From: Parcubacteria group bacterium GW2011_GWB1_42_6
GTDB lineage: Bacteria > Patescibacteriota > Minisyncoccia > Portnoybacterales > GWB1-42-6
Direction of reading: 5' to 3'
Length of the DNA stretch: 64,000 nucleotides
Assembly (NCBI GenBank): GCA_000997475.1
Contig: LCEC01000001.1
Coordinates: 375-64,374 of the forward strand
The first letter of the stretch is position 1. Each line of letters starts with the position of its first letter. A program made the translations under genes and the position numbers. Shown one piece after another: positions 21,908-64,000 of the stretch. Under the pieces are notes generated by a model. It was not told the origin of the DNA. It worked only from the letters and a program-made list of their open reading frames with translations, and ran no database searches.

Positions 21908-22039
21908 TTTTCAAATTGCAAATTCTCCTCCTTCGCTCCTTCGGAGCTTCGGAAGGACATGGCAATTTCCAATTAAGGATGAAACTATTTATATAACTCC
22001 CCCAACCCCCTCTTATCTAAGAGGGGGAATCCGCCAAGA

Positions 22040-25818: not shown

Positions 25819-26763
25819 ATGAATTTTCTCGACATCAATCAATCTTACAAAAACGCGAAATTCGTTGTCGCGCCTTTTGGCTTTGAAGCCACCACGAGTT
25901 ATGGCGGAGGAACGAATAAAGGCCCGGCGGCAATAATCAAAGCCAGCGCCCAGGTTGAGCTTTTCGACGAAGAACTCTGGCGGGAAATCTACAAAAAGAC
26001 AGGCATTTTCACTTTGCCCGCAATAAAACCCGCCAAAAATATTCCCGGCGCCAAGAAACAGATTTCAAAAATAATCTCAAAAATTCTTGCGGATAAAAAA
26101 ATCCCGATTGTTTTGGGCGGCGAACATAGCATCACGCCTATGATAGTTGAAACATTTTCGGATTTCCTCCTCCCCTCGTCGAGGGGAGGCCATGGAGGGG
26201 TAATTAATCCTAAAATTACCTCCCCCGAACCCCTCCCTAAAAAGGAGGGAAGGAATTCCGCCGCTTCTTTCTCCATCCTCCAATTTGACGCCCACGCCGA
26301 TTTGCGCGATGGCTACTTGGGGCAAAAATATTCCCACGCGGCCGCCATGCGCCGATGTTTGGATAATGAGGGTGTTAATTTAGTCCAAGTCGGGATCAGG
26401 AACATCAGCAACGAAAATGATGAGTTGGTTTTTTGGGAAGCAAACAAAGATCGCATTAAAACTTTCTGGGCCAAAGATAAAAAAAATTGGAAGCTTTCCG
26501 AAATTATGGGTTCTCTTAGGGAAAATGTTTATTTAACCTTTGATGTTGACGCTTTTGATTCTTCGATTATGCCTTCAACCGGCACGCCCGAACCCGGAGG
26601 ATTGGATTGGTACGAAGTGATGGATATTTTGCGCGAAGTCGCCAAAACCAAAAACATCATCGGCATGGATTTTGTGGAGCTCGCTCCCATTAAAACCCTT
26701 CCCGCGCCGGATTTTTTGGTCGCCAAGATGATTTATAAGACGATAGGGTATATTTTAAAATAA
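25819..26763 (+). CDS. Agmatinase/arginase-family ureohydrolase
   Basis: Metal-binding motifs GGEHSIT, FDAHADL, SFDVDAFD; carries an in-frame palindromic insertion at 26166-26252. Confidence 0.75.
   Translation: MNFLDINQSYKNAKFVVAPFGFEATTSYGGGTNKGPAAIIKASAQVELFDEELWREIYKKTGIFTLPAIKPAKNIPGAKKQISKIISKILADKKIPIVLGGEHSITPMIVETFSDFLLPSSRGGHGGVINPKITSPEPLPKKEGRNSAASFSILQFDAHADLRDGYLGQKYSHAAAMRRCLDNEGVNLVQVGIRNISNENDELVFWEANKDRIKTFWAKDKKNWKLSEIMGSLRENVYLTFDVDAFDSSIMPSTGTPEPGGLDWYEVMDILREVAKTKNIIGMDFVELAPIKTLPAPDFLVAKMIYKTIGYILK
26166..26252. repeat. In-frame composite of three GC-rich hairpins inside the agmatinase gene
   Basis: cctcccctc-gtc-gaggggagg, ggaggggtaatt..aattacctcccc, ccctccc-taaaaa-ggaggg; the region encodes SSRGGHGGVINPKITSPEPLPKKEGRN. 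Confidence 0.6.
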
Positions 26764-30321: not shown

Positions 30322-30584
30322 TCGCTTGGCCTTGCCCCGGGCGCATTCTTTGAGTTTCTCCTTCGGATTTCAACAAATCTTTCAGCTGTCATATTATCCA
30401 TGGCTTGCTCCTTGAAAACGGGTTTATTTGGTTGGGAACGAACTTCTTTCTTTGATACATAAGTATATCATATATAATCAACTGTGTCAAGGTTTGGAGC
30501 ACAGAACTCAAATGGTTGATTTTTGACGGGATTTTTTGTATAATTCGGGGAGAAACATTTAATTTTAAAGGTAAAAATCCCTCT

Positions 30585-30680
30585 CTTCGAGCCTGTCATT
30601 CGACCCCGAGGGTCTTAGACCCGAACGGGAGGGCCTCAGAGCCTCGAAGGCCCAACCTCCCTTTAGAAGGGAGGAGAAAA
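30585..30680 (+). promoter_or_regulatory. secA 5' leader made of four consecutive GC-rich hairpins
   Basis: gggtct-t-agaccc, cccgaacggg, gggcct..aggccc, and cctccctt-TAGA-aagggagg overlapping the SD. Confidence 0.5.
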
Positions 30681-30683
30681 ACG

Positions 30684-33368
30684 ATGTCCATATTCACCAA
30701 AATTTTCGGCGGGACGAATGAAAAGTCTGTTGCCAAATATAAAACGGTCATTGAAGAGATTAATAAGCTTGAACCGAAATTCGAGTCTTTTTCGGATGAG
30801 GAATTGAAATTGAAGACCGCCCAATTTAAAGAAAGATTGGGCAAAGGAGAAACTCTGGATGATATTTTGCCCGAAGCCTTCGCGGCTTGCCGCGAGGCGG
30901 CCAAGCGCGCGATCGGCCAACGGCATTTTGACGTTCAGTTGATCGGCGGAATGGTTTTGCACGAAGGAAAAATCGCCGAAATGAAAACCGGCGAAGGAAA
31001 AACTTTGGCGGCGACTTTGGCGGTATATCTCAACGCGCTTTCAGGCAAAGGCGCGCACGTTGTAACGGTGAACGATTATCTTTCCAAACGCGACGCCAAC
31101 TGGATGGGATCAATTTATCATTTTTTGGGTTTGAGCACCGGCTGCATCCAGCACGAAAAATCTTATGTTTACGAACCCAAAAAAATCGATCTCAACGAGG
31201 TAACGGTGGAAATGGAAAATCTCAAACAGGTTTCGCGGCGTGAGGCCTATGCCGCCGATATCACTTACGGCACGAACAACGAATTCGGCTTTGATTATTT
31301 GCGCGACAATATGGTGCCGGATTTCAGCGAGATGGCGCAAAGACCTGTCCTCCGAAGCCTTGGCGAAGGGGGAAAACACAACTTCGCCATTGTGGACGAA
31401 GTTGATAGCATTTTGATCGACGAAGCGCGCACGCCTTTGATTATTTCCGCTCCCGACGAAGATTCGGGCAAACTCTACGAAACTTTCGCGCGGATTGTTC
31501 CCCGCCTCAAAGAAAACGAGGATTTTAACATTGATGAAAAATTGCGCTCGGCCACTCTCACGGAAGAAGGCATTGAAAAAGTGGAAAAAATTTTGGGTTT
31601 GGGGAATATTTACACCGAAGGCGGAATAAAATACGTTCATCACTTGGAGCAAGCTTTGCGGGCGCAGGCGCTTTTTAAAAAAGATCGCCATTATGTCGTC
31701 AAAAACGGCGAGATCATTATCGTTGATGAATTTACCGGCCGCCTTATGCCCGGCAGAAGATATTCGGAAGGCCTTCATCAGGCTTTGGAAGCCAAAGAAA
31801 ACGTTACGGTGCAAAAAGAATCGCGGACTTTGGCCTCAATCACTTTTCAAAACTATTTCAGAATGTATGAAAAACTTTCGGGCATGACCGGAACCGCCAT
31901 GAGTTCGGCCGAGGAATTCGGCAAAGTCTATAATCTTGAAGTGGTGGAAGTTCCCACCCATAAGCCTCTTTCCAGGGGTGATAAATCCGATTTGATTTTT
32001 CGCACCGAGATGGGAAAATTCAAAGCGGTGATCCGTGAAGTGGAAGAACGGTACAAAAAAAATCAACCGGTTTTGATCGGCACGGCCTCGATTGATAAAA
32101 ACGAACTTTTGGACCAACTTTTAACCAAAGCCGGAATCAAGCATGAAGTTTTAAACGCCAAAAATCACGAACGCGAAGCTTTGATTATCGCCAAAGCCGG
32201 GGAGCCGGGCGCGGTGACGGTGGCGACAAATATGGCGGGGCGCGGAGTGGATATAATTTTGGGGGGAAGAATTGAATCTCACAACTCTCCCCAACCCCTT
32301 CTTAACTTAAGAGGGGGAGAGGGGGAGTTATCAAAGGATAGCTCTCAAGAAAAAAGTGAATGGCAAAAAAAACACGACTTGGTTGTTTCTTTGGGGGGAC
32401 TGGCGATCATCGGCACCGAGCGCCATGAAGCGCGCCGGATTGACGACCAGTTGCGCGGGCGCGCCGGCCGCCAGGGCGATCCGGGTTCTTCGCGGTTTTT
32501 CGTTTCGCTTGAGGACGATTTGATGAGGATTTTCGCGGCCGATCGCATCAAGGGAATGATGGAATTTTTAAAGATGCCCGAAGACGAGCCGATTGAAAAC
32601 AAAATGATCTCCAAGGCGATCGAATCGGCGCAGGAAAAAATCGAAGGATTCAATTTTGACACTCGCAAACATGTTTTGGAATATGACGATGTGATGAACA
32701 AACAGCGCGAAACGATTTATCGCAAGCGCCGGGAAATTTTGGAATCAAAAGATCTTAAAGAAAAAACTTTGGAAGCGATTTTGGGGGAAGTCAAAAAAAT
32801 CGCCCAATTCCATGCCGCGGGATACAAAGAAGAATGGAACACGAAAGAGCTCAAAGAATCATTGGGCGCGATTATGCCTCTTCCGGCTGATTTTGACGAA
32901 GCGGTTGGGAAAATTGAAACTTCCGAAAATCTGGTTGGCTTTTTGGAAAAACTCGCCGCCGATATTTACGAGATGAAAGAAAAACAAATCGGTTTTGAGC
33001 AGATGCGAGAAATCGAAAAAGTTCTCTTTTTGCGCACCACCGATATGATGTGGATGGATCATCTGGACGAGATGGAGCATTTGCGCGATTCCGTTCGCTT
33101 GCGCGCCTATGGCCAAAAAGATCCCTTGGTTGAATACAAAAACGAAGGCCACAAACTTTTTCAGGATTTGCTGGCTGCCATTCAGGCGCAATTTACGAGC
33201 ATGATTTACAAAGTGACTCTAACGCCGCCGGAGAATCGCCAATCGCGCGTCGCCAATCGCCCTTCGACAAACTCACCACAGGCAAGCTCGGGAAATAATT
33301 CGGTCGGCAGAAACGATCCGTGCCCGTGCGGGAGCGGGAAAAAGTATAAGAAGTGTTGTGGAAAATAA
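30684..33368 (+). CDS. secA: Preprotein translocase ATPase SecA
   Basis: MSIFTKIFGG.. start, DEAD-like motor motifs, and C-terminal zinc-binding CPCGSGKKYKKCCG; the ORF-track N-terminal extension from 30516 is not credible. Confidence 0.9.
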   Translation: MSIFTKIFGGTNEKSVAKYKTVIEEINKLEPKFESFSDEELKLKTAQFKERLGKGETLDDILPEAFAACREAAKRAIGQRHFDVQLIGGMVLHEGKIAEMKTGEGKTLAATLAVYLNALSGKGAHVVTVNDYLSKRDANWMGSIYHFLGLSTGCIQHEKSYVYEPKKIDLNEVTVEMENLKQVSRREAYAADITYGTNNEFGFDYLRDNMVPDFSEMAQRPVLRSLGEGGKHNFAIVDEVDSILIDEARTPLIISAPDEDSGKLYETFARIVPRLKENEDFNIDEKLRSATLTEEGIEKVEKILGLGNIYTEGGIKYVHHLEQALRAQALFKKDRHYVVKNGEIIIVDEFTGRLMPGRRYSEGLHQALEAKENVTVQKESRTLASITFQNYFRMYEKLSGMTGTAMSSAEEFGKVYNLEVVEVPTHKPLSRGDKSDLIFRTEMGKFKAVIREVEERYKKNQPVLIGTASIDKNELLDQLLTKAGIKHEVLNAKNHEREALIIAKAGEPGAVTVATNMAGRGVDIILGGRIESHNSPQPLLNLRGGEGELSKDSSQEKSEWQKKHDLVVSLGGLAIIGTERHEARRIDDQLRGRAGRQGDPGSSRFFVSLEDDLMRIFAADRIKGMMEFLKMPEDEPIENKMISKAIESAQEKIEGFNFDTRKHVLEYDDVMNKQRETIYRKRREILESKDLKEKTLEAILGEVKKIAQFHAAGYKEEWNTKELKESLGAIMPLPADFDEAVGKIETSENLVGFLEKLAADIYEMKEKQIGFEQMREIEKVLFLRTTDMMWMDHLDEMEHLRDSVRLRAYGQKDPLVEYKNEGHKLFQDLLAAIQAQFTSMIYKVTLTPPENRQSRVANRPSTNSPQASSGNNSVGRNDPCPCGSGKKYKKCCGK
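32284..32328. repeat. In-frame GC-rich palindromic insertion within secA
   Basis: ctccccaacccc ttcttaacttaaga gggggagaggggg encodes SPQPLLNLRGGEGE. Confidence 0.6.
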
Positions 33369-33728: not shown

Positions 33729-33770
33729 TATAAGTGAGTTATTTACGCTATAGCGTAAATAACTCACTTA
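33729..33770. repeat. Perfect 18-bp-stem palindrome
   Basis: taagtgagttatttacgc tatagc gtaaataactcactta. Confidence 0.8.
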
Positions 33771-33849
33771 TGGAAATTTGAAGGGGACATTCAGAAATAA
33801 TTAAAATAATTAAAAAGGACGGAATTTTTCCGTCCTTTTGCGTTTTTAA

Positions 33850-43652: not shown

Positions 43653-43728
43653 GAGTTTGCGCTCCCCCTCTTCCTTGCGCGCTTCATATTTATAGCATAG
43701 AATGAGGTAAATTACAAACCCCCGCACC

Positions 43729-43868
43729 TAATCGGCATAATTGAATTCTCTTTCTTCTCTGTCATCCCCGCGCAGGCGGGGATCCAGATTAATTCAGAAC
43801 CTGGATTCCCCCCGTAGCTGCGGGGCGGGAATGACAAATATAAAGCCAATGCCGATTAGGTGCGGGGG
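43729..43868. mobile_element. MITE-like element A with 19-bp perfect terminal inverted repeats
   Basis: TIR CCCCCGCACCTAATCGGCA / TGCCGATTAGGTGCGGGGG; internal multi-hairpin core. Confidence 0.6.
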
Positions 43869-46767: not shown

Positions 46768-46883
46768 CACACCTAGTCAGGATATTTGAATTTAATTTGG
46801 ATAATAAACAAGTTTACTCCCAATGGCTTGTTTGTCTTCGAAGGATTCTTTGAATAAAAAACAATCCTGATTAGGCGCGGGGG
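46768..46883. mobile_element. MITE-like element B, copy 1
   Basis: (c)cacctagtcagga ... tcctgattaggcgcggggg imperfect TIRs; interior is the reverse complement of copy 2. Confidence 0.55.
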
Positions 46884-46937: not shown

Positions 46938-48809
46938 ATGACGGCCAAGGAATTACGCGGTAAATATCTTGAATTTTTCAAAGCTCGGGGGCACGCGGTT
47001 ATCCCTTCGGCTTCTTTGGTTCCGCAAAACGATCCCACAGTGCTTTTTACCACCGCCGGAATGCAACCTTTAGTGCCGTATCTTTTGGGCGAAAAGCATC
47101 CCCAAGGAAAGCGGCTTGTCAATGTTCAAAAATGCCTCCGCACCAACGATATTGATGAAGTGGGTGATGCCACTCACGGAACTTTTTTTGAAATGCTTGG
47201 CAATTGGTCTTTGGGCGATTATTTTAAAAAAGAATCGTTGAGTTGGAGCTATGAATTTTTAACTTCGCCTGAATGGTTGGGATTGGATAAAAACCGTTTG
47301 GCTGTTTCGGTTTTTGCAGGGGATGACGACGCGCCATTTGATGAAGAAGCTTTTGAAATTTGGAGATCTTTGGGTATTTCTGAAAAAAGAATCACCCGGC
47401 TTCCCAAAGAAAACAATTGGTGGGGGCCGGCCGGAGAAACCGGGCCATGCGGACCGGATTCGGAAATATTTTATTGGACCGGCGCTCCGGATCAGGTTCC
47501 GGAAAGTTTCAACGATGATAACGATCTTTGGGTGGAAATCTGGAATAACGTTTTTATGCAATATAATAAAAACATAAAAGGCTCCTTTGAACCGCTTGCG
47601 CAAAAAAATGTTGACACGGGTTTGGGGCTGGAAAGGGCGCTGGTTACTCTCAATGGCTACGACGAGATTTATAAGATTGACGTTATCCGGCCGATTATTG
47701 AAAAGATAGAAGAAATTTCAGGGAAGAAATACGATGAAACTATCTCTGAAATCCCCCTTAATCCCCCTTTTACAAAGGGGGGAAATCAGAAGGCTATGAG
47801 AATCGTGGCGGATCATTTGAAAGCGAGCGCTTTTTTAATCGCCGATGGAGTTGAGCCTTCCAATACGGAGCGAGGCTATGTTTTGCGCCGGCTGATTCGG
47901 CGCGCGGTGAGATATGGCCGGCAATTGGGAATTGAAGGAATTTTTTGTTTTAAAATCGCGCGGGTCGCGATTGAAATATACAAAGATATTTATCCGGAAC
48001 TTTCGCGGGAAGAAAATTCAATCGAAGAGCAATTAACGAAAGAAGAAGAAAAATTTGCCAAGACTCTTGAATCCGGATTGAAACAATTTGAAAATGTAAA
48101 AATCAAAATTAAAAATGACAGCGCAAAATCTGGAATTATTTCCGGGGAGATCGCTTTTAATTTGTATCAGACTTACGGTTTTCCCGTCGAGCTGACAAAA
48201 GAATTGGCCAAAGAAGCCGGATTGGAAGTTGACGAGGAAAAATTTAAGGATGAAATGAAGCGCCATCAAGAACTTTCCCGCGCCGGAGCCGAACAAAAAT
48301 TCAAAGGCGGTTTAGCCGATCATTCGGAACAAACCGTCAAATACCACACGGCGGCGCATTTGCTTTTGGCGGCTTTGCGTCAAACTTTGGGCGGAGACGT
48401 AAATCAGCGTGGCGCCAATATAACAAGCGAACGATTGAGATTTGATTTTTCGCATCCGCAAAAAATGACTCCGGAACAAATTAAAGAAGTTGAGGATTTG
48501 GTGAATGAAAAAATCAAAGAAGACTTGCCGGTTGCTTGCGAAGAGATGGCCTTGGATGAAGCGAAAGCAAAGGGAGCGACTGGAATTTTCGATTCAAAAT
48601 ACGGGGAGAGGGTGAAAGTTTATACAATTGGAAGCCCTTCGACAGGTCCTTCGACAGGCTCAGGGCAATGCTCGGGGTCCGCGGCTTTCAGCCGCGAGAT
48701 TTGCGGCGGGCCGCATGTTGAAAGAACGGGAGTTTTGGGAAATTTTAAGATCGTTAAAGAAGAATCGTGTTCGGCCGGAGTGAGAAGAATCAAAGCGGTG
48801 CTGAAATAA
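46938..48809 (+). CDS. alaS: Alanine--tRNA ligase, short form (catalytic, tRNA-recognition and editing domains; no C-Ala domain)
   Basis: N-terminal class II core, editing-domain HTAAHLL motif; 623 aa; contains two in-frame insertions. Confidence 0.85.
   Translation: MTAKELRGKYLEFFKARGHAVIPSASLVPQNDPTVLFTTAGMQPLVPYLLGEKHPQGKRLVNVQKCLRTNDIDEVGDATHGTFFEMLGNWSLGDYFKKESLSWSYEFLTSPEWLGLDKNRLAVSVFAGDDDAPFDEEAFEIWRSLGISEKRITRLPKENNWWGPAGETGPCGPDSEIFYWTGAPDQVPESFNDDNDLWVEIWNNVFMQYNKNIKGSFEPLAQKNVDTGLGLERALVTLNGYDEIYKIDVIRPIIEKIEEISGKKYDETISEIPLNPPFTKGGNQKAMRIVADHLKASAFLIADGVEPSNTERGYVLRRLIRRAVRYGRQLGIEGIFCFKIARVAIEIYKDIYPELSREENSIEEQLTKEEEKFAKTLESGLKQFENVKIKIKNDSAKSGIISGEIAFNLYQTYGFPVELTKELAKEAGLEVDEEKFKDEMKRHQELSRAGAEQKFKGGLADHSEQTVKYHTAAHLLLAALRQTLGGDVNQRGANITSERLRFDFSHPQKMTPEQIKEVEDLVNEKIKEDLPVACEEMALDEAKAKGATGIFDSKYGERVKVYTIGSPSTGPSTGSGQCSGSAAFSREICGGPHVERTGVLGNFKIVKEESCSAGVRRIKAVLK
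47752..47786. repeat. In-frame GC-rich palindromic insertion within alaS
   Basis: tccccctta atccccctttt acaaa ggggggaaat encodes PLNPPFTKGGN. Confidence 0.6.
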
Positions 48810-48856: not shown

Positions 48857-48935
48857 GTCATTCCCGCGCAGGCGGGAATCTAGATTAATTCAGAATTAGA
48901 CTTGGGTCTGGATCCCCGTTTTCACGGGGATGACA
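48857..48935. repeat. TIR-less copy of the MITE-A core (GTCAT..ATGAC multi-hairpin unit)
   Basis: gtcattcccgcgcaggcgggaatctagattaattcagaa.. is about 80% identical to 43761-43837. Confidence 0.55.
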
Positions 48936-60379: not shown

Positions 60380-61402
60380 TTGAAAATTAATAGCTTGTTT
60401 ATAAAAAAAATAGGAATTGACCTGGGAACGGCCAATACCCTGGTTTATGTGCCGGGAAAAGGCATTATCATCAACGAACCTACGGTAGTGGCTGTTTCCA
60501 TCAGCGACAATAAAATTCTGGCGGTAGGCAACGAAGCCAGAGAAATGCTCGGCCGCACACCCGATGCGATTATGGCTTTGCGTCCGATGAAAGACGGAGT
60601 GATTGCCGATTATCGGGTGACGGAAGCGATGCTTCGCTATTTTATAAATAAAACCGCCGGATCCCTGCGTTTTTTCAGGCCGGAAGTCATGGTGGCGGTT
60701 CCCGCGGGAATAACTTCAACTGAAAAGCGCGCGGTGGTGGATGCCACTCTTAATGCCGGCGCCAAAGCGGCTTATGTGGTTAAGGAGCCGGTTTTGGCCG
60801 CTATCGGGGCGGGGATTCCAATTAACGAACCGGCCGGGCATATGATTATTGATATCGGCGGGGGGACTTCGGAAGTGGCCGTGATTTCTTTGGGAGGAAT
60901 CGTGGCTTGCGCTTCGGCAAGAGTCGGCGGCAATAAAATCGATCAATCGATTGCCGAATATATCCGCAAAAAACATAATTTGGCCATTGGCGAAAGAATG
61001 GCCGAAGAAATAAAATTTACCATCGGCTCGGCTCTTCCGCAAAAAGACGAACAGAAAATGGACGTAAGAGGCAGGGATTTAATAGCCGGCTTGCCAAAAA
61101 CGATTGAAATAAAAAGCAACGAAGTCACAGAAGCGATTTCCGAAAATCTGCGCGAGGTGATCGTGGCGATAAAAAGCGTTTTGCAAAATACTCCTCCCGA
61201 ACTTTCGGCGGATATTATCGATCGGGGAATGATTATTTCCGGAGGCGGGGCATTGTTGCGGAATATGCCGGAGCTTATTGAAAAAGCTACCGGTGTTGCT
61301 TGTTACGCGGCCGAAAATCCGCTTTTTTGCGTGGCCAAGGGCGCGGGAATAGCCCTGGAGCATTTGGAAATTTATAAGAGAAGCGTGATGTCGAAGAAAT
61401 AG
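60380..61402 (+). CDS. mreB: Rod shape-determining protein MreB
   Basis: GIDLGTANTLVYV.. actin-like ATPase motifs; TTG or alternative start. Confidence 0.85.
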   Translation: MKINSLFIKKIGIDLGTANTLVYVPGKGIIINEPTVVAVSISDNKILAVGNEAREMLGRTPDAIMALRPMKDGVIADYRVTEAMLRYFINKTAGSLRFFRPEVMVAVPAGITSTEKRAVVDATLNAGAKAAYVVKEPVLAAIGAGIPINEPAGHMIIDIGGGTSEVAVISLGGIVACASARVGGNKIDQSIAEYIRKKHNLAIGERMAEEIKFTIGSALPQKDEQKMDVRGRDLIAGLPKTIEIKSNEVTEAISENLREVIVAIKSVLQNTPPELSADIIDRGMIISGGGALLRNMPELIEKATGVACYAAENPLFCVAKGAGIALEHLEIYKRSVMSKK

Positions 61403-61466
61403 TATGCGAATCGCGCAAATTCATGCGAATTGCGCACATGCGAATAAAATGCGAATCCCATTCGAG

Positions 61467-61501
61467 GCATTTGAATAAAATTCGTAGATTGGAATTATAT
61501 T
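61467..61501 (+). promoter_or_regulatory. Conserved 34-nt module abutting the GT4 start codon (copy of 55150-55184)
   Basis: atttgaataaaattcgtagattggaattatatt immediately 5' of ATG. Confidence 0.5.
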
Positions 61502-62605
61502 ATGACTATTGGCATTAACGCCTCGGCGGCTGTCAAAAAGAATAGAACCGGAGTGGAAGAATACGCTTATCAGCTCATAAAGCATTTGGCGATGATTCCC
61601 GAGTCCCAAAAGCATCGTTTTTTTCTATATTTGCCATCCGCAGTTTTAGCAAAGGAAGGTTTGCCCGACAATGTTTTTGATTTTTCTTTCCCTGAAAATT
61701 TTATAATAAAAAAACTTTGGTGGCCGCTGCCTTTCTTCTGGACGCAAATAAGATTGTCTCTGGAAATGATTTTTTTTGCGCCGGACGTTCTTTTCATCCC
61801 CGTTCATATTTTGCCTTTCATTCATCCAAAAAAATCCATTGTTTGTGTTCACGGCCTTGAATATGAATATCTGCGCGGATTCTATTCTTTTTCCCATCGT
61901 TTGTTTTTGCGTTGGAGCACCAAATTTTCCGCCGCGAAATCTTTCCGGATAATCGCGGTTTCTCAAAATACCAAGAACGATTTGGCAAAAATATATAAGA
62001 CAGATACTGATAAAATAAAAGTGGTAAAACACGGGATTTCCTTTCCCCCTTTAGAAAGGGGGATTAAGGGGGATTTTTTAAGGAAGAAAGAAAAATATAT
62101 TTTATATCTAGGCCGCATCGAAACCAAGAAGAATATCCAAGGAATTATTGAAGCGTATGAAATTCTGAATAACAAATATAGCATTCACCACAAGCTTGTT
62201 TTAGCCGGTTCAAAAGGATACGGCCATAAGAATTTAAAAATACCGAGCGATGTGATTCAGACCGGATTCGTGAGCCAAGAAAAAAAAGAAGTCTTGATGA
62301 ACAACGCCGCAATATTTCTATTTCCCTGTTTTTACGAGGGTTTTGGTTTGCCGATTCTTGAAGCTCAAGCGGCGGGAATTCCCGTCGTGACTTCTTATAA
62401 TTCTTCAATGCCGGAAGTGGCCGGGGAAGGGGCTTTATTTGTTGATCCGCGCAATCCGGCTCAAATCGCCCGGGCCGTTAAAAAAATAATTGACGACAAT
62501 CTCTTGCGTGATAAACTGATACAATCGGGATTTGAGAACATAAAAAAATTTTCTTGGGAAAAATGCGCTCGGGAAACGCTGGATTTTTTAAGCAGCTTGG
62601 AATAG
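61502..62605 (+). CDS. Glycosyltransferase family 4 (GT-B)
   Basis: C-terminal EGFGLPILEAQAAGIPVVT sugar-donor-binding motif. Confidence 0.75.
   Translation: MTIGINASAAVKKNRTGVEEYAYQLIKHLAMIPESQKHRFFLYLPSAVLAKEGLPDNVFDFSFPENFIIKKLWWPLPFFWTQIRLSLEMIFFAPDVLFIPVHILPFIHPKKSIVCVHGLEYEYLRGFYSFSHRLFLRWSTKFSAAKSFRIIAVSQNTKNDLAKIYKTDTDKIKVVKHGISFPPLERGIKGDFLRKKEKYILYLGRIETKKNIQGIIEAYEILNNKYSIHHKLVLAGSKGYGHKNLKIPSDVIQTGFVSQEKKEVLMNNAAIFLFPCFYEGFGLPILEAQAAGIPVVTSYNSSMPEVAGEGALFVDPRNPAQIARAVKKIIDDNLLRDKLIQSGFENIKKFSWEKCARETLDFLSSLE
62041..62075. repeat. In-frame GC-rich palindromic insertion within the GT4 gene
   Basis: ctttccccctttagaaagggggattaagggggat encodes SFPPLERGIKGD. Confidence 0.55.
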
Positions 62606-62616
62606 GAGGATGAGCT

Positions 62617-62799
62617 ATGGAAGAGAAGCAAATAATATCTCCCCATGACGCCGCGGGAAGATGCGAAAAATGTTCCAAAGTAATTTTTGGATGTTGCTCC
62701 GAAGGATTTGCTCTGTGTCCGGATTGCGGCGAACCGGTCAAGCTTGATCCGATAAAGCATCGCGGACCGTGCGGAGGTTCTTTGGAGAAAATCCACTGA
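62617..62799 (+). CDS. Small Cys-rich zinc-ribbon protein
   Basis: 60 aa with CEKC..CC..CPDCG..C pattern. Confidence 0.35.
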   Translation: MEEKQIISPHDAAGRCEKCSKVIFGCCSEGFALCPDCGEPVKLDPIKHRGPCGGSLEKIH

Positions 62800-62804
62800 C
62801 AAGT

Positions 62805-62838
62805 CAAAAAAGGAGCGGAGAATCCGCTCCTTTATTAT
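62805..62838 (+). terminator. Rho-independent terminator
   Basis: Hairpin aggagcgga/tccgctcct plus T-rich tail. Confidence 0.6.
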
Positions 62839-62871
62839 TATAATCGATTAATTTTAAAAAATAATTTGCCC

Positions 62872-64000
62872 GTGAAAATAGCTTTAATCCATGATTTTTT
62901 GATCAGATTCGGAGGAGCGGAGAGGGTGCTTTTGGAATTGGCGCGAATGTTTCCGGAAGCGCCCATTTATACCCTGCTTTATGATAAAGAAAAAATGTCC
63001 CAATGGTTTGAACCGGAAAGGGTAAAAGTTTCTTTTTTGCAAAAATTCCCCCGCTTTTTGCGCCGAAATCATAAATTGCTTTTGCCTTTGATGATAGTGG
63101 CGCCGGAAACCTTTGATTTGCGGGATTTTGATTTGGTTATTTCTTCTTCATCCGCTTATGCCAAAGGAGTAATCACGAGGCCTAAAACCATCCATATAAA
63201 TTATTGCCATAATCCGGCGAGGTTTATTTGGGATTATTCTTTTGAATATTTAAAAGAACAAGAGTTGGGTTTAATAAGCGGAGCTATTTCCAGAATATTT
63301 TTCAGCTATTTTCGCCTTTGGGACCGTTCGGCGAGCAAACGGGTGGATTATTTTATCGCCAATTCCCAATCTACGGCGCGGCGCATCCGGAAATATTACC
63401 GCCGTGATTCAAGAATAATATTTCCGCCTTGCCGGATTCCCCAAAACGGATTTAATGTCTGCGAAAAAAATTTGCAAGACATGGGCGCTGTTTTGCCAAA
63501 TGATTTCTTTTTGATAATTTCCCAGCTCGCTCCTTATAAAAAAATAGACGCGGCGGTTGAGGCTTTTAATAAGCTCGGCTTGCCTTTGATTGTTATTGGC
63601 GATGGTCCGCAAAAAAAATATTTGCAAAAAATTGCCAAATCCAACGTAAAAATCATGGGCTGGCTGGATGACAAAGAAACTTTTCAGTATCTTCGGGGCT
63701 GCCAAGCCTTAATTTTTTCGGGCGAGGATGATTTTGGCATTGCGCCGGTTGAGGCGATGGGTTTTGGCAAGCCTGTTTTGGCGCTAAATCGCGGCGGAGC
63801 ATTGGAAACGGTGATTCCCGGAAAAACCGGAGAATTTTTTGATTCGCCCACGCCCGAAGTCATAGCTGAAGGAGTGCGGCGCTTGCGCGAAAATATGCCC
63901 GAATACGATCCTATGGAAATTCATAACCATGTCAAACAATTTTCGGCGGAGAGGTTTAGAGAAGAGATAAAACAATTTATCGGTGAAAAATATCGATTGG
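62872..64000 (+). CDS. Glycosyltransferase family 4, second copy (3' end lies outside the window)
   Basis: GTG start; IALIHDFLIRFGGAERVLLELARMF N-terminus and ..EDDFGIAPVEAMGFGKPVLA; open to the window end; absent from the ORF track, presumably because it has no stop in the window. Confidence 0.7.
   Translation, partial: MKIALIHDFLIRFGGAERVLLELARMFPEAPIYTLLYDKEKMSQWFEPERVKVSFLQKFPRFLRRNHKLLLPLMIVAPETFDLRDFDLVISSSSAYAKGVITRPKTIHINYCHNPARFIWDYSFEYLKEQELGLISGAISRIFFSYFRLWDRSASKRVDYFIANSQSTARRIRKYYRRDSRIIFPPCRIPQNGFNVCEKNLQDMGAVLPNDFFLIISQLAPYKKIDAAVEAFNKLGLPLIVIGDGPQKKYLQKIAKSNVKIMGWLDDKETFQYLRGCQALIFSGEDDFGIAPVEAMGFGKPVLALNRGGALETVIPGKTGEFFDSPTPEVIAEGVRRLRENMPEYDPMEIHNHVKQFSAERFREEIKQFIGEKYRL

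What the first reader, a model, noticed from the sequence alone, without database searches (positions are those of the whole stretch)
62041..62075. In-frame palindromic insertion in the GT4 glycosyltransferase gene
ccccctttagaaaggggg plus attaaggggga encodes ..SFPPLERGIKGDFL.. within the GT4 ORF. This is the fourth coding-region member of the family.
Basis: seen in the sequence. Interest (0 to 1): 0.5.

Follow-up and report, generated by a model that had tools for sequence, protein, structure and literature searches.

The report
Tiny palindromic repeat inside glycosyltransferase gene
A 30-base copy of a very widespread hairpin-forming repeat sits in frame in a flexible linker of a sugar-transferase gene of a tiny groundwater bacterium, and the same repeat turns out to form the inverted ends of small cassettes that carry a DUF559 nuclease gene in many bacterial phyla.

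Summary
Window 62044-62079 reads tCCCCCTTTagAAAGGGGGaTTAAGGGGGaTTTTTT and lies in frame in the GT4 ORF (61502-62605), encoding PPLERGIKGD (residues 182-191).

The insertion reading is supported:
- The closest orthologue (69% identity, same synteny) lacks the segment. Removing exactly 30 nt restores its HG-x-x-FF junction.
- The AlphaFold model is confident everywhere except this inter-domain loop.
- The alaS copy shares an exact 18-mer, and the secA and agmatinase copies are also extra relative to solved homologues.

1. The same 18-mer, with its hairpin partner, occurs in at least 120 contigs from many phyla. It is mostly intergenic there.
2. In 80 metagenomic DUF559 (Vsr-like nuclease) loci, fetched by protein similarity only, such hairpins are about 33-fold enriched next to the gene. 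They bracket it as inverted copies: [hairpin + G-run]-ATG...stop-[C-run + hairpin]. The dispersed single and double copies therefore look like MITE-like derivatives of a DUF559 cassette.

The GT4 linker and the alaS loop are recurrent landing sites in other CPR lineages.

Mobility itself, the acting enzyme and translation of the insert are inferred. No DUF559 gene lies in the window.

The in-frame insertion follows a known pattern (Rickettsia RPEs, intragenic REPs). The DUF559 link appears undescribed in the papers I could search.

The parts
61502..62605 (+). Host gene: GT4/GT1-family glycosyltransferase, 367 aa. It is the first of two tandem GT genes downstream of murA-mreB.
   Evidence: ORF list. 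Pfam PF13439, PF00534 and PF13692. Conserved synteny in L123 and L124. AF2 model with pLDDT 91.
62045..62074 (+). The 30 nt that are extra relative to the nearest orthologue: codons 182-191, PPLERGIKGD.
   Evidence: Alignment A1 and codon-level comparison with L001. pLDDT below 50 at residues 187-195, with no secondary structure from 175 to 198.
62044..62063 (+). Hairpin core TCCCCCTTT-ag-AAAGGGGGA (9-bp stem).
   Evidence: Folds as single-stranded DNA at -10 kcal/mol.
62064..62079 (+). TTAA spacer, second copy of the 3' arm (GGGGGA), then a T6 run. This gives the copy its 'forward' orientation.
   Evidence: Exact 18-mer shared with the alaS copy. Same layout in 109 of 128 copies from other genomes.
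47751..47786 (-). Sister copy in alaS (ORF 46938..48809 +), reverse orientation relative to the gene. It encodes IPLNPPFTKGGN.
   Evidence: 12-residue gap against A. aeolicus AlaRS. Absent from the nearest orthologue P0142. The same loop is occupied by one or two elements in P0147, P0162 and P0189.
32287..32327 (+). Relative in secA (ORF 30516..33368), a symmetric form: CTCCCCaaCCCCttcttaacttaagaGGGGGagaGGGGGAG. It encodes SPQPLLNLRGGEGE.
   Evidence: 8 extra residues against E. coli SecA in a variable loop.
26169..26252 (+). Doublet in the agmatinase-family ORF (25819..26763): a forward copy, a 20-nt spacer, then a reverse copy. This is the same arrangement as the two ends of a DUF559 cassette with the gene missing.
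   Evidence: About 34 extra residues against solved agmatinases. Folding z-score -3.45.
21997..22029 (-). Intergenic copy: CCCCCaaCCCCCTCTTAtcTAAGAGGGGG.
   Evidence: (z-score -3.39).
30656..30674 (+). Possible degenerate relative: hairpin CCTCCCTTtagAAGGGAGG. Its 3' arm overlaps the Shine-Dalgarno-like GGAGG 10 nt before the secA ATG (30685).
   Evidence: Membership in the family is not established.

Best explanation
The segment is a single ('solo') copy of a short, dispersed, hairpin-forming DNA repeat. Its consensus is t-TCCCCCTTT-loop-AAAGGGGGA-TTAA-GGGGGA-TTTT.

The copy became lodged in a T-rich stretch of the codons for the linker between the two Rossmann-like domains of a GT4 glycosyltransferase. 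It survives there because it adds exactly 30 nt, carries no stop codon in the frame used, and is translated into ten Pro/Gly/Lys-rich residues in a disordered surface loop. As far as the data go, it is a passenger in this protein and has no known function there.

The repeat family is not specific to this organism. In many phyla the same unit, in inverted copies, brackets a small gene for a DUF559 (Vsr-like, PD-(D/E)XK) endonuclease. The forward copy ends just before the start codon and the reverse copy begins just after the stop. The dispersed doublets and singlets therefore look like gene-less (MITE-like) derivatives or footprints of that cassette. I infer that they are spread, or once were, with the help of that nuclease.

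Shown: the sequence; the in-frame position; absence from the nearest orthologues; the location in a low-confidence loop; the multi-copy and cross-phylum distribution; the association with DUF559 genes and its geometry.

Inferred: that the copy arrived by insertion rather than by any other route; that it is translated; that DUF559 is the mobilising enzyme; and the actual mechanism (transposition, or break-and-repair 'homing' that uses the repeat copies as short homology arms).
For: 1. Insertion.
- P0002 (69% identity, same murA-mreB-GT4-GT4 neighbourhood) is 8 residues shorter at this point. After removing 62045-62074 the junctions align: HGISFF against HGFDFF.
- The linker ranges from 17 to 53 residues in 120 orthologues. 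The window has 25.

2. Repeat family in the window.
- An exact 18-mer is shared with the alaS copy.
- There are five to six loci in 64 kb.
- Stems differ between copies by paired changes: CCCCCTTT/AAAGGGGG, CCCCCTCTTA/TAAGAGGGGG, CCTCCCCTC/GAGGGGAGG.
- The alaS, secA and agmatinase copies are extra relative to solved homologues by 12, 8 and about 34 residues.

3. Permissive site.
- The AF2 model has pLDDT 91.2. The only stretch below 50 is residues 187-195, between strand 172-174 and strand 199-203.

4. Wide distribution.
- 109 of 128 instances have the CCCCCTT partner upstream and 105 of 128 are followed by TT.
- 25 instances lie near a locus end, as multi-copy repeats often do.
- Copies also occur in Acinetobacter and cyanobacterial plasmids and in 29 IMG/VR contigs.

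5. DUF559 link.
- 6 of 120 loci have a DUF559 gene immediately next to the element.
- In the reverse test, 80 DUF559 loci were fetched with the domain only. Hairpins occur at 5.2 per kb within 150 nt of the gene, against 0.16 per kb more than 400 nt away.
- 48 of 74 loci have a hairpin upstream, 52 of 77 downstream, and 31 have both.
- The nearest upstream copy is forward in 30 of 44 loci and the nearest downstream copy is reverse in 42 of 51.
- Left end against the reverse complement of the right end is 0.79 identical within a locus and 0.72 between loci, and reaches 0.97.
- In a related Parcubacteria contig (L236) the DUF559 gene is preceded by TCCCCCTTTATTAAAGGGGGATTAAGGGGGATTT, which contains the exact 18-mer of the GT4 copy. 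It is followed by AATCCCCCAACCCCCTTTAATAAAGGGGGA, which runs in frame into alaS.
Against: - No presence/absence polymorphism was found. All cluster members at 90% identity or more keep the inserts, and the nearest empty site is in a 69%-identical orthologue. The exact boundaries and any target-site duplication therefore cannot be read.
- No DUF559 gene lies in the 64-kb window. I could not examine the rest of the genome.
- The 80 DUF559 loci are the best matches to queries that themselves came from element-bearing loci. The association is shown for this subfamily only, not for all DUF559 genes.
- A PD-(D/E)XK nuclease acting alone is not a known transposase, so the mobility mechanism is open.
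- The flanking copies could instead be expression signals, or the preferred target, of the DUF559 gene.
- Translation of the insert is inferred from ORF integrity only.
- Dinucleotide-shuffle z-scores for the short GT4 hairpin are weak (-0.97), because C-runs and G-runs pair in shuffles too.
Confidence: 0.75

Rival explanations
1. Old, vertically inherited linker expansion. One ancestral element entered the GT4 linker early in this Parcubacteria clade. It has since been lost, duplicated or remodelled in different lineages, so the window copy is a relic and not a separate insertion.
For: P0023/L122 has a forward element starting only a few codons from the same position: HGIRISDFT|PPFIKGGGEGF against HGISF|PPLERGIKGD. 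Many orthologues have an expanded linker. Palindromes are prone to precise deletion.
Against: The two closest orthologues (69% and 63% identity) are empty, while element-bearing ones are more distant at 53-57%. The elements at this site differ in family, number and orientation. The window copy still matches the cross-phylum consensus and shares an exact 18-mer with alaS. That is not expected after the divergence seen in the surrounding codons.
Confidence: 0.12
2. A selected cis-acting signal inside the gene. Candidates are an internal terminator or attenuator, a translational pause hairpin, or a binding site for a DNA-binding protein (three GGGGGA/TCCCCC half-sites at about 10-bp spacing). On this reading the copy is kept for what it does to expression of the GT4 operon.
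For: The unit is a G+C-rich hairpin followed by a T-run. The direct repeat GGGGGATTAA-GGGGGATTTT has one-helical-turn spacing. The sequence is strongly conserved across phyla. In DUF559 cassettes the forward copy ends just before the ATG.
Against: The terminator scan does not call it, because the T-run is separated from the stable hairpin by ATTAAGGGGGA. Copies elsewhere show no orientation bias relative to flanking ORFs: ++ 24, -- 19, divergent 10, convergent 6. There is no Rfam family. The nearest orthologues do without it.
Confidence: 0.08
3. A selected peptide module. The Pro-Pro-Leu...Gly-x-Lys-Gly loop is useful to the protein, for instance as a flexible hinge or an interaction motif, and was recruited for that reason.
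For: Similar P..L/F..(K/R)GG peptides recur in GT4, AlaRS, SecA and agmatinase of this and related genomes. The insert sits in the hinge of a GT-B enzyme.
Against: The similarity lies at the DNA level. It includes intergenic copies and both orientations, and different reading frames of the same DNA give different peptides: IPLNPPFTKGG against SPLIPLFKGG. The insert has low model confidence. The nearest orthologues lack it.
Confidence: 0.04
4. An artefact of assembly or sequencing, or a segment removed from the RNA (intron-like) and so never translated.
For: Repeats of this family often lie at contig ends. One cluster member of the agmatinase (P0133) breaks off inside the element.
Against: The identical protein is on 22 contigs from several sources and in two deposited MAGs. 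Every coding copy examined is a multiple of 3 nt and free of stops, which splicing would not require. There is no match to any intron or other Rfam family.
Confidence: 0.02

Closest known systems
Rickettsia palindromic elements (RPEs; Ogata et al. 2000/2002, cited from my own knowledge and as summarised in PMC3733652)
   Same: A dispersed palindromic repeat found in frame inside conserved, apparently functional protein genes. It adds a peptide at a tolerant surface position in a small genome with little intergenic space.
   Different: RPE-1 is about 100-150 bp and restricted to Rickettsia, and no associated enzyme gene is known. The unit here is 30-36 nt with a hairpin-plus-repeated-arm layout. 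It is found across many phyla and brackets DUF559 nuclease genes.
REP / REPIN elements with RAYT transposases ('REPtrons'; PMC3116915, PMC3733652, PMC6006769)
   Same: Palindromes of 20-40 bp occur as singlets and as inverted doublets. Copies flank the gene of the presumed mobilising enzyme. Intragenic, in-frame REPs have been catalogued (PMC3733652).
   Different: There is no GTAG or CGTC tag at the foot of the hairpin. The flanked gene is a PD-(D/E)XK (Vsr-like) DUF559 nuclease and not a Y1 HUH transposase. REP families are mostly species- or genus-specific, whereas this sequence is nearly identical across phyla.
[quoted passage not shown]
   Same: The doublets (forward copy, short spacer, reverse copy; for example window 26169-26252) are what is left if the gene is deleted from the [end]-DUF559-[end] cassette. 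That is the defining relation of a MITE to its parent element.
   Different: No DDE transposase is involved and no target-site duplication could be read. The units are far shorter than usual MITEs (70-300 bp). The GT4 copy is only one end.
Small dispersed repeats (SDRs) of heterocystous cyanobacteria (Elhai et al. 2008, Genome Res 18:1484; cited from memory, paper not held)
   Same: Very short (21-27 nt) hairpin-capable mobile repeats that insert into one another and into genes. My scans also hit Nostoc and other cyanobacteria.
   Different: I could not compare sequences. SDRs were described as largely confined to one cyanobacterial group and without an associated enzyme.
Vsr-fold homing endonucleases (the 'VSR, DUF559, DUF2726' clade in PMC3424549 includes a group I intron homing endonuclease)
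   Same: A small free-standing nuclease gene of the same fold class that behaves as a selfish, patchily distributed gene.
   Different: No intron or intein is involved here. The gene is bracketed by inverted hairpin repeats, which also occur on their own in large numbers.

Membership tests
REP/REPIN-RAYT | Short (20-40 bp) imperfect palindrome present in many dispersed copies, as singlets and as inverted doublets | tested here: met
   Doublets at window 26169-26252 and in L122 and L123.
REP/REPIN-RAYT | Conserved GTAG (or CGTC) tetranucleotide at the 5' foot of the hairpin | tested here: not met
   The consensus of 128 copies is t(c/t)TCCCCCTTT...GGGGGATTTT, and no GTAG or CGTC is present. The window copies likewise lack it.
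REP/REPIN-RAYT | A RAYT (Y1 HUH, PF01797) gene flanked by the repeats | tested here: not met
   The gene found flanked by the repeats is DUF559, PF04480. No recurrent Y1 transposase appeared among neighbours. The whole source genome could not be searched.
Rickettsia palindromic elements | In-frame insertion of a palindromic repeat in conserved protein genes, absent from orthologues | tested here: met
Rickettsia palindromic elements | Sequence family of Rickettsia, unit length about 100-150 bp (RPE-1) or the CGTC-tagged RPE-4/6 | tested here: not met
   The host is a Parcubacteria MAG. The unit is 30-36 nt and has no CGTC tag.
MITE | Two terminal inverted repeats matching those of a gene-carrying parent element | tested here: inconclusive
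   Met for the doublets and for the DUF559 cassette ends. The GT4 copy is a single end only.
MITE | Target-site duplication flanking the element | tested here: inconclusive
   Copies are flanked by T-runs on both sides, but there is no empty site close enough to define a duplication.
Intrinsic terminator | G+C-rich hairpin immediately followed by a T-run | tested here: not met
   The consensus scan does not call it. The T-run follows the second G-run and not the stable hairpin. There is no orientation bias relative to genes.
Any curated RNA family (Rfam 15) | Covariance-model match at or above the gathering score | tested here: not met
   Nothing near threshold over 62036-62115. The best overlapping hits score 10-20 bits against gathering scores of 100-376.
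GT4 glycosyltransferase (host gene) | Two-domain GT-B architecture with Glyco_transf_4 and Glycos_transf_1 domains | tested here: met
   Pfam. AF2 model with pTM 0.89 and two Rossmann-like halves.

The most novel reading that the evidence does not exclude
The C-run/G-run hairpin repeats are the terminal inverted repeats of a previously unrecognised family of miniature selfish cassettes, about 0.45 kb long, whose only gene is a DUF559 (Vsr-like PD-(D/E)XK) nuclease. The family spans many bacterial phyla. Gene-less doublets and single ends are scattered through genomes. In gene-dense CPR genomes they survive mainly as in-frame peptide insertions in loops of essential proteins (SecA, AlaRS, GT4, agmatinase). 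If so, a nuclease-driven element would be a steady source of loop expansions in these proteins.
Probability: 0.35. Interest if true: 0.8.

Novelty: new variant of a known kind. Interest (0 to 1): 0.6.

Why it matters
Taken alone, the GT4 insertion is another example of a phenomenon known from Rickettsia RPEs and intragenic REPs: a palindromic repeat tolerated in frame in a protein loop. Three points make it more than that.

1. The repeat is nearly identical in sequence from Patescibacteria to Nitrospirota, Chloroflexota, cyanobacteria and Acinetobacter plasmids. That is unusual for REP-like elements.
2. It has a clear and, as far as I could find, undescribed partner gene. DUF559 is a very common 'endonuclease domain-containing protein' of unknown function, and this gives a testable hypothesis for what it does.
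3. The same loops of orthologous proteins (the GT4 hinge and one AlaRS loop) have been hit repeatedly, by several repeat families, in different CPR lineages. That bears on how proteins of reduced genomes acquire lineage-specific insertions.

There is also a practical consequence. Gene callers fuse DUF559 to neighbouring genes through these stop-free ends. P0197 is called as a DUF559-AlaRS fusion.

Tried and rejected
- Rfam at a permissive E-value over 61000-63000: only noise.
- Promoter/terminator scan: the element is not called as a terminator.
- Literature search for the sequence strings: only chance matches in primers and the like.
- Searches for CPR plus in-frame palindromic elements and for DUF559 plus repeats: nothing relevant. 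25 papers mention DUF559, none in this context.
- Elhai 2008 (SDRs): could not be read.
- Presence/absence polymorphism among cluster members at 90% identity or more for GT4, AlaRS, agmatinase and SecA: none found, and all full-length members keep the inserts.
- Orientation of 128 copies relative to flanking ORFs: no bias, so no support for a terminator role.
- tblastn for DUF559 in the window: none. In the 29 viral loci: none.
- P0196, tried as a near relative of the DUF559-bearing alaS locus L236: only 67% identical, so no clean empty site for the cassette. It shows only that murB abuts alaS there.
- Fold z-scores against dinucleotide shuffles are uninformative for the shortest copies.
- My first regex-based measurement of the linker length failed, matching only 19 of 120 sequences. 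I replaced it with an alignment-based measurement.
Full report
**1. The observation**

Window 62040-62079 reads cctttCCCCCTTTAGAAAGGGGGATTAAGGGGGATTTTTT. It lies in the ORF 61502..62605 (+), and 62045 is the first base of codon 182. The stretch is translated ...KHGISF-PPLERGIKGD-FLRKKEKYILYLGR.... The ORF is a complete GT4/GT1 glycosyltransferase (PF13439 + PF00534).

The palindrome and the 18-mer AAGGGGGATTAAGGGGGA are far above chance in the window. They give 5 and 2 matches against 0.06 and 0.07 expected, and no shuffle reached those counts. The second exact 18-mer lies in alaS on the other strand.

A scan for C-runs, G-runs and hairpins finds the rest of the family:
- an intergenic copy at 21997-22029;
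- a doublet in an agmatinase-family ORF at 26169-26252;
- a symmetric copy in secA at 32287-32327;
- the alaS copy at 47751-47786;
- a possible relative that overlaps the ribosome-binding site of secA at 30656-30674.

The window comes from a Parcubacteria (CPR/Patescibacteria) groundwater MAG, GW2011_GWB1_42_6 / GWC1_43_12 / GWA1_42_7. The identical GT4 protein is recorded on 22 contigs, so the feature is not an assembly accident.

**2. Is it an insertion?**

The GT4 protein has thousands of homologues. The best are Parcubacteria/Portnoybacteria proteins in the same murA-mreB-GT4-GT4 neighbourhood. In the alignment the stretch between the invariant HG and the LGRxE motif is hypervariable. The nearest orthologue, P0002 (69% identity), reads HGFDFFSPAKEEKLILLYLGR. 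Removing exactly the 30 nt 62045-62074 from the window gives HGISFF|LRKKEKYILYLGR, so the junction falls in a T-run (TTT|TTTTTA) that P0002 also has.

An AlphaFold2 model built on the alignment is confident (pLDDT 91.2, pTM 0.89) except for residues 181-198. pLDDT is below 50 at 187-195. This stretch is a coil between the last strand of the N-terminal half (172-174) and the first strand of the C-terminal half (199-203). The extra residues therefore sit in the inter-domain hinge loop.

The sister copies behave the same way against solved homologues:
- a 12-residue gap in A. aeolicus AlaRS;
- 8 extra residues in a variable loop against E. coli SecA;
- about 34 unaligned residues in the agmatinase.

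All cluster members at 90% identity or more keep the inserts. I found no segregating empty allele.

**3. A recurrent landing site**

Measured on an alignment of the 120 best orthologues, the linker ranges from 17 to 53 residues, with most of the short ones at 20-23. About a third are expanded, and the expansions are recognisably repeat-derived and of several kinds:
- PPLNLRGGE...PPFQKEGE...PPLKLRGGEGEL;
- VIPAKAGIQ...SGSRIKxGMT;
- CHSEAVGRGIS...SLAxLGMT.

At DNA level the orthologous linkers of L122, L123 and L124 hold two, two and three C-run/G-run elements in various orientations.

The alaS loop shows the same pattern. P0142 (67% identity) and P0197 are empty, whereas P0162, P0147 and P0189 carry one or two elements at exactly the window's position.

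The window's GT4 copy still matches the cross-phylum consensus almost base for base, while the host genes have diverged to 56-69% protein identity. I therefore favour repeated, independent insertion at tolerant (and perhaps T-rich, preferred) sites over one ancient event. The latter cannot be excluded.

**4. The repeat is not a local peculiarity**

About 17 would be expected by chance. The hits include Nitrospirota, Desulfobacterota, Dehalococcoidia, Schekmanbacteria, Elusimicrobiota, Riflebacteria, cyanobacteria, Bacteroidota, Gammaproteobacteria and other Patescibacteria, several of them on contigs of hundreds of kilobases.

- 109 of 128 instances have the complementary CCCCCTT arm upstream.
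- 105 of 128 are followed by TT.
- Some are full long palindromes, AATCCCCCTTAATCCCCCTTTnnnAAAGGGGGATTAAGGGGGATT.
- 25 lie near a locus end.
- Only 20 of 128 lie inside a stop-to-stop ORF of 120 aa or more, and there is no orientation bias relative to neighbouring ORFs.

So elsewhere the element is mainly intergenic, and it does not behave like a terminator. Near-identical copies also occur in Acinetobacter and cyanobacterial plasmids and in 29 IMG/VR contigs. Rfam has no family for it. No paper in the library contains the sequence.

**5. The partner gene**

Clustering the ORFs around the 128 copies gave one small family that sat immediately beside the element in six loci from different phyla. 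Pfam identifies it as DUF559 (PF04480), a Vsr-like PD-(D/E)XK endonuclease.

To test the link from the other side, I used only the DUF559 domain, with no repeat-derived residues, to fetch 80 loci from metagenomes.
- Pyrimidine-arm hairpins with at least 4 C occur at 5.2 per kb within 150 nt of the gene and 0.16 per kb more than 400 nt away.
- 48 of 74 loci have one upstream, 52 of 77 downstream, and 31 have both.
- The geometry is stereotyped: [TCCCCCTTTnnnAAAGGGGGA-ttaa-GGGGGATTT]ATG...stop...[AAATCCCCC-ttaa-TCCCCCTTTnnnAAAGGGGGA].
- The nearest upstream copy is 'forward' in 30 of 44 loci and the nearest downstream copy is 'reverse' in 42 of 51.
- Left and right ends of one locus resemble each other more (0.79, up to 0.97) than ends of different loci (0.72). 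For example, C5 ends pair with C5 ends and C6-7 with C6-7.

In a related Parcubacteria contig (L236) the DUF559 gene is preceded by TCCCCCTTTATTAAAGGGGGATTAAGGGGGATTT, which contains the very 18-mer of the GT4 copy. It is followed by a reverse copy that runs without a stop into alaS, so the gene caller produced a 735-aa 'DUF559-AlaRS' protein.

The subfamily has more than 1,000 members at E below 1e-10, in Patescibacteria, cyanobacteria, Latescibacteria, Bacillota and others. Many are on very short contigs, and some have repeat-derived N- or C-terminal extensions.

**6. Interpretation**

The gene-bearing unit looks like a miniature element with about 35-bp inverted ends. The doublets are the same ends without the gene: the agmatinase insert in the window, and L122 and L123. 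The GT4 and alaS copies are single ends.

Three things remain inferred: how the copies move, whether DUF559 is the agent, and whether the process is transposition or break-induced copying that uses the ends as short homology. A PD-(D/E)XK nuclease acting alone is not a known transposase. The ends might alternatively be the target or the expression signals of the gene. No DUF559 gene lies in the window, and I could not search the rest of the genome.

For the GT4 protein itself, the simplest reading is a neutral ten-residue passenger loop. It is tolerated because the element's C5/T3/A3/G5 composition reads as Pro, Leu/Phe, Lys and Gly in the open frames, and because it lies in a hinge.

**7. Comparison with what is known**

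The behaviour matches three known cases:
- Rickettsia RPEs and the intragenic REPs catalogued by Di Nocera et al. (PMC3733652);
- the REPIN/RAYT 'REPtron' logic of repeats flanking their enzyme gene (PMC3116915, PMC6006769);
- the relation of a MITE to its parent element.

It is not a member of the REP/RAYT family. The GTAG/CGTC tag is absent, and the flanked gene is DUF559 and not a Y1 transposase. It is not an RPE either. Possible overlap with the cyanobacterial SDRs (Elhai 2008) could not be checked, because that paper is not held.

**8. Verdict**

The in-frame insertion belongs to a known kind of phenomenon. The cross-phylum identity of the repeat and its DUF559 partner make it a new variant worth following up.

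Noticed in passing
L156-L235 (80 metagenomic DUF559 loci); L029, L050, L236: DUF559 (PF04480) nuclease genes of one widespread subfamily are bracketed by inverted copies of the C-run/G-run hairpin element. The forward copy ends at the ATG and the reverse copy begins after the stop. Hairpin density is 5.2 per kb next to the gene and 0.16 per kb away from it.
   Followed up: yes
P0197 / L236 1451-3658: A 735-aa 'AlaRS' that is really a DUF559 gene read through its stop-free right-hand repeat (INPPTPFNKGGIKN) into alaS. This is an annotation artefact caused by these elements.
   Followed up: yes
Alignment of P0001-P0120 (GT4 orthologues), linker between HG and LGRxE: The linker varies from 17 to 53 residues. 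In different CPR lineages it hosts peptides from at least three distinct palindromic repeat families: PPLxLRGGE type, VIPAKAGIQ...GMT type and CHSEAVGRGIS...LGMT type.
   Followed up: partly
window 43761-43836 and 48857-48935: Two intergenic inverted doublets of a different repeat family: GTCATCCCCGCGCAGGCGGGGATCCAG...CCTGGATTCCCCCCGTAGCTGCGGGGCGGGAATGAC and GTCATTCCCGCGCAGGCGGGAATCTAG...GGATCCCCGTTTTCACGGGGATGAC. This is the DNA that reads as 'VIPAKAGIQ' when it lands in genes of other genomes.
   Followed up: no
window 43719-43868: A 20-nt inverted repeat, CCCCCGCACCTAATCGGCAT ... ATGCCGATTAGGTGCGGGGG, encloses the 43761-43836 doublet. A related GATTAGGCGCGGGGG lies at about 46866-46883. The repeats appear to be nested.
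   Followed up: no
window 33730-33771: A perfect 20-bp-stem palindrome, ATAAGTGAGTTATTTACGCT-at-AGCGTAAATAACTCACTTAT, about 360 nt downstream of secA. It is unrelated in sequence to the family studied here.
   Followed up: no
window 30656-30674: The hairpin CCTCCCTTtagAAGGGAGG has a 3' arm that contains the Shine-Dalgarno-like GGAGG about 10 nt before the secA ATG. It could sequester the ribosome-binding site, or it could be a decayed element copy.
   Followed up: no
L154 (Acinetobacter plasmid NZ_CP090068) 2501-2600: TCCCCCTTTTACAAAGGGGGATTTAGGGGGATTTTT lies directly after the stop of a CoA-transferase gene. It is followed by a second, reverse-oriented relative and then an unannotated transposase-like ORF. 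The family is therefore present in cultured Gammaproteobacteria.
   Followed up: partly
L021 533-883: A DUF559 gene that is itself interrupted by an insertion carrying two further hairpin elements. The upstream element's loop also holds a nested unrelated palindrome (cctggacaaaaccatccagg).
   Followed up: no
P0189 (AlaRS orthologue): Besides two elements in the alaS loop, this orthologue has an N-terminal MSFSRKRESRSGSRV... extension and an internal DPSTGSGQAL. These are hallmarks of yet other repeat families read through by the gene call.
   Followed up: no
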